A DNA stretch of 64,000 nt from Arcobacteraceae bacterium (GTDB lineage Bacteria; Campylobacterota; Campylobacteria; Campylobacterales; Arcobacteraceae), in NCBI GenBank assembly GCA_963662945.1, contig OY759974.1, positions 2,176,001-2,240,000 of the forward strand, in the 5' to 3' direction. Each line of letters opens with the position of its first letter. Within the stretch, counting starts at the first letter, position 1. Shown here in pieces: positions 15,001 to 18,000 of the stretch. The position numbers were made by a program.

Positions 15001-18000
15001 GCTTTAGAAAAAGCTTCATCTCCCCAAGGGTACCAATTCACTGGATTGTCTTTGTGTTGTAAAAGATAAGGGGAAGTTTCATTTTGTAATTGATTTGCCA
15101 TAATAATTCCTAAAAAAATAATAAATAATAGAAGAGCTTTTGTAAACATAGTAAACTCCTTTTGATTAATCATAGCACTTGATTATTAAGAGATATTGAA
15201 AATTATAATTGAGTTTTTTGAATAATATTGGATTTATTTAAAGAGTTTGGAGAAGGAGCTATTTATCAAAAATAACCAAACTTCTCCCAAATGGTATCTT
15301 ATTTTTATTTTGAGATAAAGCCCATATCACTTCATATGCAGGTGGGATTCTTGGAAAAATCCCCTCCCCATCAGTAAAGTATAATAACATACTAGACATT
15401 GGAATATTTGCATCAATATACTCAAAAGTAGGGCGATAGTCTGTTCCACCTCCACCTTTGAGTGGAAAATCCATCTCTTCTCCACCCATAAAACTATGGT
15501 GCGAGTGTACCTTCGCATCTGCTATAAGAAGTTCTATAGAAACAGCAGGGAAGTTTTGCATGATAGATTTAAACTCCCCTATAAATGCTCCTAAGATATC
15601 TTCTCGTATTGACCCAGAGGTATCTATGGCAACTATGAGGCTTAGTGTATCACTGGTTAAACTTGGCAGTGCTACACCCCTATAGATATGTTTTTTGTTT
15701 GGTGGCATGAAGGCATAGTTATTTCTCATGTGACGATTGATGGCGTTGTAAAGTTCAAATTTCCAGTCGATGTCGTTTGCTTTGATTTTTTTGGCAAATC
15801 TTTCAAGTCCTAGTGGAGTTGAGCTGTTTTTTAGTGTAACTTCTTTTGCTAAACTAGCTGCATAGTCCCACTCCTCCATAGTTTTTTCATCATCTGGATT
15901 GTTGATATTTTTGAAAATAGAGCTATCTCCATCTTTTTCTTTTATAAAGCTTTCTAAGTTTTTTACATCATCATAACTACTTGTACCATTTTGTTCTGCA
16001 AATTCTTTTTTAAGTATCTCATATATCTCTTCAGAATACATATTTTTATACTCAGTGTTGTAGTTTGCACCCTTTGGTATTTTGAGTTTATTTTTGGCTA
16101 ACATATTATTTATAGCATAGTCAGTTGCCAGTTGCCACAATACACCTTTACGATTTAGTTTTCTTTGATTGTGTGCTAAAATATGGTGCATAACGCAGTT
16201 TGTAAGGATAAAAAAAAGTTCATCTTGTGAGAGACTTTCTATATAAGTTGGATTATAGATAAATCTTTTACCATTACTTGCAAAATAATCTATAGCAGAA
16301 TTTTCCTCATGCTTTAATCTTGAAGCTAACATCCCAAAGTAGGGGTGTTTTGCTGTGAGTTGACTTTTTGCTTTGGTTAATTTAAGAGTTGCATCCATTA
16401 GTGTAGTAAGGTATTGAACTTTCTAGCCCATAGTGGCCAACTTTTTATATAATCAAGTGCAATATCACGGCTTCGTAAATCTTGCACTATCATAACAGCA
16501 AATTCTCCTGGTAAATTAAGAGTATATTTAAGAAGATTATCTAATTCGGCTGCTCTTGTTTCTTCGTCTATTTTCATAGTAAGTGAAGTACAAAGTATAT
16601 GTAAAGCAGAAGTTTCTTCAGGTACATCTGTACTAGTTCCATCAAGAATTTTATCTATATCTGGCAGGTTTTTTGCAACACTTTTAAATCCTAAAAAGGA
16701 AGCAGCCAACTCTTGCCCAATAGCACCACTTACCATATCCATAAGAAGGTCATCATCTGGCGTTGAAGCTAAAATCTCATTGACATATTCCCAAGTTCGT
16801 GGAGTTGCAAATGCTTTTGAGTCATTTTGTGTATTAAAAGCAAAAAGAGCATCTGGTCTATAAGAAGTAAAAGCGATAATAGTAGGGTCAATATCTGTAG
16901 TTTTTGCCCAAGCTTGCCAAACATCTAAATCAACTTCCATATCAAGGTGAACAAATCTATTTGCAAGTGGTGAAGCCATACGAAATACAACGCCTCTATC
17001 ACTTTCTCTATTTCCAGCAGCAACTATAGCCCAACCATCAGGCAAAGTGTATTCACCTATTTTTCTATCAAGGATTAACTGATAAGCACTTGCTTGTACC
17101 ATAGGAGCTGCTGTGTTAAGTTCATCTAAAAATAAAATCCCCTCTTTAACACTTCCATCAGGTAAAAATGAGGCTTTCGCCCAAACAGCACTATTATCTG
17201 CACTATCAAAAAATGGTATTCCTCGTAGATCTGTAGGGTCTAAAAGTGAAAGTCGTAAATCTATAAAACCTATCTCTCTATCTTTTGCAATTTGAGATAC
17301 GATTGAAGACTTTCCAATACCTGGAGGTCCCCATAAAAATACTGGTACTTTTCTTTTTGTTAAGTGGTCTATTGATCTTTTTGCTTTACTTGGATTCATA
17401 TATGCTACTCCTTGGTTTGTTAAGCTTATGCAAGAAGTATGCCTAAGTGTTATTTGCTTTTTATTATAATCCTGCGAAATGGAAATACATATATGCAAAC
17501 AATAAGTATTTTAGGAAGTGGTTGGTTAGGCTTGCCTTTTACTTTTAAAAACCTAGTTCAATATACAGAAAACTCACAAATAAAAAAGTTAATTTTTTAT
17601 CAAGTCCTGCAAAGCTTCGAAAACTGTTGATAGCTAAGACGAGGCTTGACAATTATATTGTTCAATATAATATTTCATATCAAACAAATCAATCTGCTGA
17701 TAGTACGGAGCATAAGGAATCTTAGGACGCTTAAAAATAACACCCCTAACAGCCATTACTCCAAGAGCACCTGCAACGTAAGAATTTGCAGTAGATGAAG
17801 GAATGTGACCTTTCCCAGCAAGTAATTCCTCTACAGCATAACCATAATGAATGTCACTTGTAGGATTGGGATAAACCCCTTTAGCTAATTTTTTAAAGAA
17901 CGTGTCTTGTGTTTCATTTTCATCCAAACCAAAATACTGGTCAAAAGAGATTCCACATTCTTTATCAAAAACAAGACAGATTGAACCTTGTCCCACTAAG

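What a model noticed while it worked through the whole genome (the two positions that open the first line are those of the whole stretch)
15259..17399. Two MoxR AAA+/VWA (DUF2201) modules are part of the nitrogen-fixation regulon
Of three MoxR-type AAA+ / DUF2201-VWA pairs in the genome, two (g02171-g02170 here; g02245 with ankyrin g02242 and VWA g02241 at C1:2263379-2270514) lie far from nif yet have sigma54 promoters and occur only in diazotrophic Arcobacteraceae. They are candidate remodelling chaperones for nitrogenase or its partners.
Evidence so far: Sigma54 motif before g02171 (score 19.4) and g02241 (13.1); kept before g02171 orthologues in 28 of 30 loci, reverse control 2, in varied gene contexts, with the VWA gene next in 29 of 30. 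In 184 family genomes the g02171 class (75-100% identity) is in 39 genomes and the g02245 class (41-45%) in 36, all among the nif-positive set; the third class (46-54%, g00224) is common in nif-negative genomes. In G130 the two modules are adjacent. Paper search 103 found no MoxR/VWA pair tied to nitrogenase.
(Added by a program. Inside this text positions count along the whole contig: contig position 2,176,001 is position 1 of the stretch shown here. "Call 12" and the like, gene names such as g00115 and contig names such as C1 are that model's own, and its searches are not shown. The text may have been shortened before it was handed on; [...] marks where a part breaks off. The agent that wrote the report below was given it as the finding of a first reader that could run no searches.)

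Follow-up and report, generated by a model that had tools for sequence, protein, structure and literature searches.

The report
Nitrogen-fixation-linked AAA+ chaperone modules
Many nitrogen-fixing relatives of Campylobacter carry an optional set of ATP-driven protein-remodelling genes whose promoters match those of the nitrogenase genes; what the set remodels is not yet known.

Summary
The MoxR-type ATPase (16398-17399), its DUF2201 VWA partner (15259-16398) and the sigma54 site (17429-17445) are real. Membership of the NifA/sigma54 regulon is well supported by genomics alone. The genome has one rpoN and one enhancer-binding protein, and rpoN occurs only with nifD in the family (62 of 167). 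Both nif-linked ATPase classes occur only in nifD-positive genomes. They lie inside nif clusters in other Campylobacterota families. Their promoters follow lineage-specific changes of nif promoters. Downstream genes split off by insertions usually carry their own site. Corrections: the modules are not limited to Arcobacteraceae; the ankyrin gene belongs to an inserted viperin cassette; and the set includes two paralogous all-helical proteins of no known family, one at window 6253-6822. A tree separates the two classes, so they were probably recruited separately. The peptidase motif has lost its catalytic Glu, while the ATPase and MIDAS motifs are intact. Best reading: an optional remodelling chaperone for a nitrogen-fixation protein, working like NorQD or CbbQO. 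Expression and client are not shown, and 25 of 64 nifD-positive family genomes lack both classes.

The parts
16398..17399 (-). MoxR-type AAA+ ATPase, class 1 (AAA1, 333 aa; ATG start with AAGGAG site; the longer TTG frame to 17498 overlaps the promoter)
   Evidence: Pfam AAA_5/AAA_3; phrog_1297 E 1e-102; Walker A, Walker B, sensor 1, Arg finger and sensor 2 motifs in 52 of 52 class-1 sequences
15259..16398 (-). VWA partner (VWA1, 379 aa): peptidase-like N-terminal domain without the catalytic Glu (NCVMHH in place of HExxH), acidic linker, VWA domain with intact MIDAS (DTSGS, T319, D343)
   Evidence: Pfam DUF2201_N and DUF2201; alignments; AlphaFold model pLDDT 75.9 with VWA/integrin I-domain fold matches
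17429..17445 (-). sigma54 -24/-12 promoter site of the AAA1-VWA1 unit
6253..6822 (-). hel194: all-helical protein of no known family, paralogue of hel238 (C1:2263379-2264095), with a conserved acidic C-terminal tail (DRDxxLDIPYM); inherited with the ATPase modules
6833..6849 (-). sigma54 site in front of hel194 and the ArsC-like gene
   Evidence: (15.3 bits, rank 51)
5813..6244 (-). ArsC-family protein close to 'nitrogenase-associated protein' TIGR01616 (102.6 bits, cut-off 109); same regulon, but also present in genomes without the modules
11162..11178 (-). sigma54 site in front of the unnamed gene 10464-11138; another unit of the scattered regulon, not part of the module
   Evidence: (16.3 bits, rank 28)

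Best explanation
Under nitrogen-fixing conditions NifA and the nif-dedicated sigma54 switch on two MoxR/VWA motors (AAA1-VWA1 here; AAA2-VWA2 at C1:2.26-2.27 Mb) and two helical paralogues (hel238, hel194). Supported by comparative genomics (about 0.9): the co-regulation and co-inheritance. Inferred from the family: each ATPase forms a ring with one VWA protein. The VWA protein grips an acidic residue of a client through its Mg-bound MIDAS, its catalytically dead peptidase domain serves as a binding or metal-holding module, and ATP hydrolysis loosens the client, as NorQD and CbbQO do. Inferred and unshown: the client is a nif-encoded metalloprotein (nitrogenase components or a cofactor scaffold) whose maturation or repair is improved, with the helical proteins as dedicated adaptors. 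The function is accessory, not essential.
For: One rpoN, inside the nifN-X-W-Z unit, and one ORF with the activator signature, NifA-like at 511 bits against a TIGR01817 cut-off of 529. rpoN is in 62 of 167 family genomes, all nifD-positive. Class 1 37 of 37, class 2 36 of 36 and hel238/194 37 of 37 are nifD-positive, and no hel gene is in the 25 nifD-positive genomes without modules. 24 of 24 re-queried nifD-negative phylum genomes hold only the 50-57% class. Core nif genes lie in the same locus for 8 of 38 class-1 and 11 of 33 class-2 loci of at least 12 kb, against 0 of 23 class-3 loci. A site precedes 47 of 55 class-1 rows. The AAA1 site changes with the nifH site: TGTA at -12 in G530 and G344, non-G at -25 in the f7 lineage. 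Genes split from their upstream partner have a site in 12 of 16 cases, adjacent ones in 2 of 112. G041 and G043 lack exactly hel194-hel238-VWA2-AAA2-orf62 and also the unlinked class 1. ATPase and MIDAS motifs are intact. Mechanism of the family: PMC9976466 (passages), PMC13036017 (abstract), PMC7159879 (passages).
Against: No expression or biochemical data. 25 of 64 nifD-positive family genomes lack both classes, five of them single-contig (G041, G043, G136, G143, G164); in the phylum sample class 2 is in only 18 of 51 nifD-positive genomes. No TGT-N10-ACA activator site within 260 nt of the AAA1 promoter, though 8 of the other 9 promoters tested lack it too. The regulon also holds oxygen-stress and redox genes (FprA-like, hemerythrin, redoxin), so regulon membership does not name nitrogenase as client. 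The closely related class 3 works in non-diazotrophs on an unknown target. The modules are separable: class 2 alone in G077, G083, G232, G217, G411, and class 1 alone in G388. Genomes are kin, so the counts overstate independence. The motif pattern was widened after seeing these sites.
Confidence: 0.55

Rival explanations
1. The modules are in the nif regulon but remodel a supporting enzyme needed in the nitrogen-fixing state (oxygen scavenging, electron supply, respiration), not a Nif protein, as RavA-ViaA acts on respiratory complexes.
For: The regulon contains FprA-like, hemerythrin, redoxin, ferredoxin and flavoprotein genes. Class 1 derives from a class that works in non-diazotrophs. The modules are optional.
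Against: None of the regulon genes tested shares the modules' presence pattern in 15 genomes: SIR2-like, nifA, nifT, flavoprotein, aldo-keto reductase, ankyrin-143, hemerythrin and ferredoxins occur with and without them. Not all genes were profiled.
Confidence: 0.2
2. hel238 and hel194 are themselves the clients: they bind and shield or silence nitrogenase, and the motors pull them off (hel194's acidic tail as MIDAS ligand), giving an ATP-driven protection switch.
For: Strict co-inheritance; hel238 directly follows a VWA gene in 31 of 36 loci; hel194 has a conserved acidic tail ending in an invariant IPY; MIDAS binds acidic residues in NorD (PMC9976466, passages).
Against: No binding data. 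Class 1 persists without a hel gene in the 20-kb locus of G388, though that genome was not searched for one. hel238 has no fold match that names a function.
Confidence: 0.15
3. A MoxR-vWA conflict (anti-phage) system or mobile passenger that merely lies near nif genes.
For: The same family is common in phages (866 records) and on plasmids near toxin-antitoxin genes; a viperin cassette is inserted in module 2 here.
Against: No PADLOC match for AAA1, VWA1, VWA2 or the hel proteins, and only a weak IetA hit for AAA2. No effector domain after the VWA domain. High conservation, vertical-looking tree, nif-only distribution and promoter co-variation.
Confidence: 0.05
4. An ATP-dependent protease: the DUF2201_N domain cleaves nif proteins fed by the ATPase.
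For: Pfam calls the domain a putative metallopeptidase; phage versions are proposed to process proteins (PMC7824862, passage).
Against: The HExxH glutamate is absent in the class 1, 2 and 3 rows seen (output partly cut) and in the consensus of alignments A1 and A3, but present in 5 of 5 outgroup proteins.
Confidence: 0.03

Closest known systems
MoxR ATPase + metallopeptidase-fused vWA pair of jumbo phages (PMC7824862; phrog_1297 / phrog_1314) and cellular DUF2201 pairs such as the Synechocystis pSYSA pair
   Same: Same two-gene family: AAA1 is 40-45% identical to phage ATPases; same N-terminal peptidase-like plus C-terminal VWA layout.
   Different: Catalytic Glu lost; chromosomal; sigma54/NifA-type promoter; restricted to diazotrophs; extra helical partners.
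NorQ-NorD, CbbQ-CbbO, CoxD-CoxE (MoxR/VWA activases and metal-insertion chaperones)
   Same: ATPase ring plus MIDAS-bearing VWA adaptor with a separate N-terminal domain and linker, co-regulated with a metalloenzyme pathway.
   Different: Different subfamily (the genome's own NorQ-like protein did not reach E 0.01); N-terminal domain unrelated; client unknown; not required in many diazotrophs, whereas NorQD is required for its enzyme in Paracoccus.
Class 3 Campylobacterota module (helical-repeat gene + AAA3 + VWA3; C1:223097-234612)
   Same: Class 1 nests inside it; same dead peptidase motif; also has a helical partner gene.
   Different: No sigma54 site, never near nif (0 of 23 loci), common in nifD-negative genomes; its partner is not detectably related to hel238.
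VMAP / iSTAND vWA-MoxR ternary conflict systems (PMC7159879)
   Same: MoxR + vWA + third component.
   Different: No variable effector domains on the vWA protein; strongly conserved rather than diversifying.

Membership tests
MoxR-like AAA+ ATPases | Walker A, Walker B, sensor 1, Arg finger, sensor 2 | tested here: met
   52 of 52 class 1; 34 of 34 class 2 for the first four, sensor-2 pattern matched in 24 of 34
MoxR-like AAA+ ATPases | Neighbouring VWA protein with MIDAS DxSxS-T-D | tested here: met
   D259, S261, S263, T319, D343 invariant in alignment A1; D280, S282, S284, T346, D371 in A3
MoxR-like AAA+ ATPases | Helix-2 insert and hexameric ring with a VWA finger in the pore | not tested
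   The ATPase was not folded; best solved relative by sequence is midasin, E 2e-11
Jumbo-phage MoxR / MPTase-vWA pair | DUF2201_N domain fused in front of the VWA domain | tested here: met
   Pfam and PHROG matches
Jumbo-phage MoxR / MPTase-vWA pair | Active zincin motif HExxH | tested here: not met
   NCVMHH in VWA1, AHTLLH in VWA2; outgroups keep HExxH
NifA-sigma54 regulon | -24/-12 site at promoter distance | tested here: met
NifA-sigma54 regulon | No other sigma54 activator that could use the site | tested here: met
   10 matches pass the PF00158 cut-off, but only one is full length (261 bits) and has the ESELFG..GAFT signature; the rest are 20-30 bit partial hits
NifA-sigma54 regulon | NifA upstream activator site | tested here: inconclusive
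   TGT-N10-ACA found at 1 of 10 promoters (nifH only); a candidate ACAA-NN-TTGT is upstream of 13 of 19 nifH promoters but not enriched at AAA1. The NifA site of this phylum is not established.
NifA-sigma54 regulon | Induction under N2 fixation, dependent on nifA and rpoN | not testable with these tools
   Needs transcript data
NorQD / CbbQO / CoxDE-type activase | A defined client enzyme whose activity depends on the pair | not testable with these tools
   No client identified
VMAP / iSTAND conflict systems | Variable effector domains C-terminal to the vWA domain | tested here: not met
   VWA domain runs to residue 376 of 379 and 406 of 408

The most novel reading that the evidence does not exclude
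Diazotrophic Campylobacterota have a dedicated 'nitrogenase activase': two separately recruited MoxR/VWA motors and two new helical proteins that use ATP to open nitrogenase, or strip a protective partner from it, for cofactor insertion or reactivation after damage, as Rubisco activase does for Rubisco.
Probability: 0.3. Interest if true: 0.85.

Novelty: new variant of a known kind. Interest (0 to 1): 0.62.

Why it matters
Nitrogenase maturation and repair genes are known mainly from a few proteobacterial models; no MoxR/VWA motor tied to nitrogenase turned up in my searches. Campylobacterota are reported as dominant dark nitrogen fixers in mangrove sediments (PMC11474244, title and passages). 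A named cultured strain carries module 2 genes (P0061 Arnit_0270, P0202), so the question is directly testable. A motor that repairs or matures nitrogenase would be of use in nitrogenase engineering. If the client is not nitrogenase, the set still defines six new accessory genes of the regulon.

Tried and rejected
Complex prediction of VWA2 with hel238, hel194 and Mg: no answer, score 0.00; no evidence either way. RNA runs: no RNA holder listed; DNA contigs only confirm the sequence, one record matching window 5138-18500 without differences, possibly the source sample. hel238 fold: confident all-helical model (pLDDT 94), but no Foldseek match at E 0.001 and best VIA Z 7.7; Atlas hits to HEAT/LRV clusters are under 0.9 with low recognition; no Pfam, PHROG, NCBIfam, PADLOC or PDB sequence match for hel194, none in the last four for hel238. 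No homology between hel238 and the class-3 partner; 'LRV-like' for that partner is my reading by eye, and Pfam found nothing. My working label 'nifB?' was wrong: that gene is Sel1 + NifU-like, and nifB is at C1:2300000. The ankyrin gene was rejected as a module part. orf62 was rejected as strictly module-specific, since it is in G164. A 16-kb DNA query was swamped by kinase and GGDEF repeats. The pattern count (20 of 2490 ORFs against 3 on the reverse strand) is partly circular and is not relied on. Earlier findings were not open. Literature: ten searches listed no paper linking a MoxR/VWA or DUF2201 pair to nif; the library lacks most subscription papers and bioRxiv supplements. Supplements of PMC11474244 (one file cut) and PMC12316311 were searched by term without a relevant hit; figures were not visible.

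Full report
What is there. The minus strand carries a 333-aa AAA+ gene (16398-17399) and, overlapping by one base, a 379-aa DUF2201_N + DUF2201 gene (15259-16398). A -24/-12 site lies at 17429-17445. The genome (2.50 Mb, 28.9% GC; closest named loci are Arcobacteraceae) has two more such pairs, at C1:2.26-2.27 Mb (class 2) and C1:0.23 Mb (class 3). Its nif genes are scattered over at least four places, so distance from nifHDK says little.

Is the promoter real and what reads it? A matrix trained only on ten promoters of nif-cluster genes ranks the AAA1 site 88th, the VWA2 site 167th and the AAA2 site 352nd of 4,994,598 positions. Those ten read GGAAY, while the module sites read GGYAY; orthologous promoters switch between the two forms (hemerythrin, redoxin, nifE, AAA2), so I treat them as one class. 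The genome has one rpoN, inside the nifN-X-W-Z unit, and one protein with the activator signature, NifA-like at 511 bits against a cut-off of 529. Nine other PF00158 matches pass the Pfam cut-off but are short. In 167 family genomes rpoN is found in 62, all nifD-positive. A working sigma54 promoter in this family is therefore very probably a NifA promoter. No NifA upstream site of the classic form lies near AAA1, but 8 of the other 9 promoters tested lack it too; activation without an upstream site is an inference.

Distribution. Of 167 family genomes at least 85% complete, 64 have nifD, 37 class 1, 36 class 2 (one broken), 34 both, and 25 nifD-positive genomes neither; no nifD-negative genome has either. 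Class 3 is in 35, 19 of them nifD-negative. In a sample of 401 phylum genomes, class 2 is in 18 from six families (two partial), all among the 51 nifD-positive ones. Class 1 was found in 11 of 40 chosen genomes outside the family, all nifD-positive. A further 24 nifD-negative genomes with a hit held only the 50-57% class. Kin are not independent, so I give no p-value.

Neighbourhood. Outside Arcobacteraceae the modules sit in nif clusters: fprA-nifQ-AAA2-VWA2-hel238 next to nifA (L140, L145); AAA1-VWA1 between nifEN-X and nifHDK (L029), or directly after nifN..nifZ-fdx-rpoN (L018). Among loci of at least 12 kb, core nif genes are present in 8 of 38 class-1, 11 of 33 class-2 and 0 of 23 class-3 loci; shorter loci were dropped and a few rows are the same genome.

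Two natural experiments. First, the AAA1 site follows lineage changes of the nifH site: both read TGTA at -12 in G530 and G344, and both lose the first G of the -24 GG in G312, G512 and G388. A widened pattern finds a site before 47 of 55 class-1 rows (reverse strand 7 of 55, several of these facing a divergent regulon gene); three of the eight without a site follow another regulon gene. Second, when an insertion separates a downstream gene from its partner by more than 150 nt, the gene has its own site: VWA1 1 of 1, VWA2 7 of 10, hel238 4 of 5. Adjacent copies have one in 0 of 55, 0 of 26 and 2 of 31, neither with GG. These fall into about five separate insertions by my reading of the gene maps. 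The adjacent control is coding DNA, which weakens it. In this genome the insertion is NYN + prokaryotic viperin + ankyrin, so the ankyrin is a passenger.

Two further parts. The gene after VWA2 (hel238) and window gene 6253-6822 (hel194) are paralogues (probability 99.6 over 145 columns). They occur in 37 of 167 family genomes, all among the 39 with class 1 or 2; 32 have both. G041 and G043 lack exactly hel194-hel238-VWA2-AAA2-orf62 between genes that G042 shares, and lack the unlinked class 1 as well. Other regulon genes tested in 15 genomes occur with and without the modules. The family is small (50 hits among 1.84 billion representatives); of 10 distant clusters looked up, the only organism named was Campylobacterales. 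hel238 models as all-helical with no telling match. hel194 has conserved His and Cys residues and an acidic tail ending in IPY.

Phylogeny. Classes 1 and 2 are each one clade (quick tree of 133 rows; careful tree of 43 chosen rows, 100/99 and 100/100). Class 1's sister is a class-3-type protein from nifD-negative G253 (100/97), and an AU test rejects class 1 + class 2 as a clade (p 0.003; the group was named after the first tree, and the outgroups are long branches that do not form one side). The simplest reading is two recruitments into the regulon.

Mechanism. ATPase motifs and MIDAS residues are intact, while the zincin Glu is missing in all three Campylobacterota classes and present in five outgroups. 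This fits a motor and adaptor, not a protease. In studied MoxR/VWA pairs the vWA domain captures a substrate peptide and the ATPase remodels it (PMC7159879, passages); NorD binds acidic residues of NorB through MIDAS and a finger enters the NorQ pore (PMC9976466, passages; PMC13036017, abstract and outline); CoxD/E mature CO dehydrogenase (PMC4240915, passages). By analogy the modules remodel a protein made during nitrogen fixation. Whether that is nitrogenase, a scaffold, a supporting enzyme or the hel proteins is open. The function is optional.

Comparison. The pair belongs to the family described in jumbo phages as MoxR plus metallopeptidase-fused vWA (PMC7824862, passage) but fails its peptidase feature. 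It works like NorQD/CbbQO by inference and is not a member of those subfamilies. Ten paper searches found no nif link (listed under Tried and rejected). PMC11474244 (passages, supplements by term) describes nif neighbourhoods of ten Campylobacterota isolates without the word ATPase; its figures were not visible to me. PMC12316311 (passages, supplements by term) lists rpoN counts for Arcobacter and Sulfuricurvum but no MoxR. PMC12096077 (abstract, sections 13 and 19) was read for the side finding on sigma54 specificity.

Verdict. Observation partly confirmed and extended; regulon membership about 0.9; chaperone for a nif-encoded client about 0.55; new variant of a known kind; interest 0.62.

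Noticed in passing
L193, L194, L200, L202-L205 (rpoN) and L156-L175 (nifH promoters): Many diazotrophs of family f7 carry a second, nif-linked RpoN. One clade (100/99) has an altered box region (RRSIAKYRQEL..P.FKER). In those genomes nifH promoters mostly read AG and other nif promoters CG in place of the -24 GG: a possible natural shift of sigma54 specificity with both box arginines kept (compare PMC12096077).
   Followed up: partly
G000 C1:715339-716592 and 167 family genomes: In this family sigma54 appears to be a purely nif sigma factor: 62 of 167 have rpoN, all nifD-positive.
   Followed up: yes
G000 C1:2265342-2269485 (L085): NYN nuclease + prokaryotic viperin (NF038283 above cut-off; PADLOC pVip) + 848-aa ankyrin protein inserted between AAA2 and VWA2; also in L095.
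   Followed up: partly
L156-L175, upstream of nifH: Palindrome ACAA-NN-TTGT (often TTCTTACAAATTTGTC) in 13 of 19 nifH upstream regions against 0.6 in shuffles: candidate NifA or other regulator site.
   Followed up: partly
L151 (G447): nifA, fprA, AAA2, VWA2 and hel238 are all in pieces and nifD is below cut-off: joint decay of the cluster or sequencing errors. In G001 AAA2 is interrupted by an inserted gene.
   Followed up: no
window 20980-22281 (+): LeuA-like protein of 433 aa that lacks the C-terminal part of the isopropylmalate synthase models; could supply homocitrate, but no sigma54 site was seen before it and nifV was not searched for.
   Followed up: no
window 17634-18458 (-): ThiF-family gene upstream of AAA1; not kept next to AAA1 in related loci.
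   Followed up: partly
G000 C1:452391-453911: The NifA-like activator reads GAFTD where the usual motif (recalled) is GAFTGA.
   Followed up: no
window 2685-2984, 9040-10487, 10464-11138; C1:2287608-2292650; C1:988085; C1:91619: Further small unnamed genes with sigma54 sites or tied to such units (orf99b, aldo-keto reductase + orf75, a GNAT-like gene, orf62, redoxin-hemerythrin-ankyrin, orf125, a 200-aa gene): more uncharacterised members of the regulon.
   Followed up: partly
G000 C1:223097-234612 (L086): Class 3 module: in relatives a helical-repeat gene directly precedes AAA3-VWA3; widespread in f7 and f4 regardless of nif; function unknown.
   Followed up: partly
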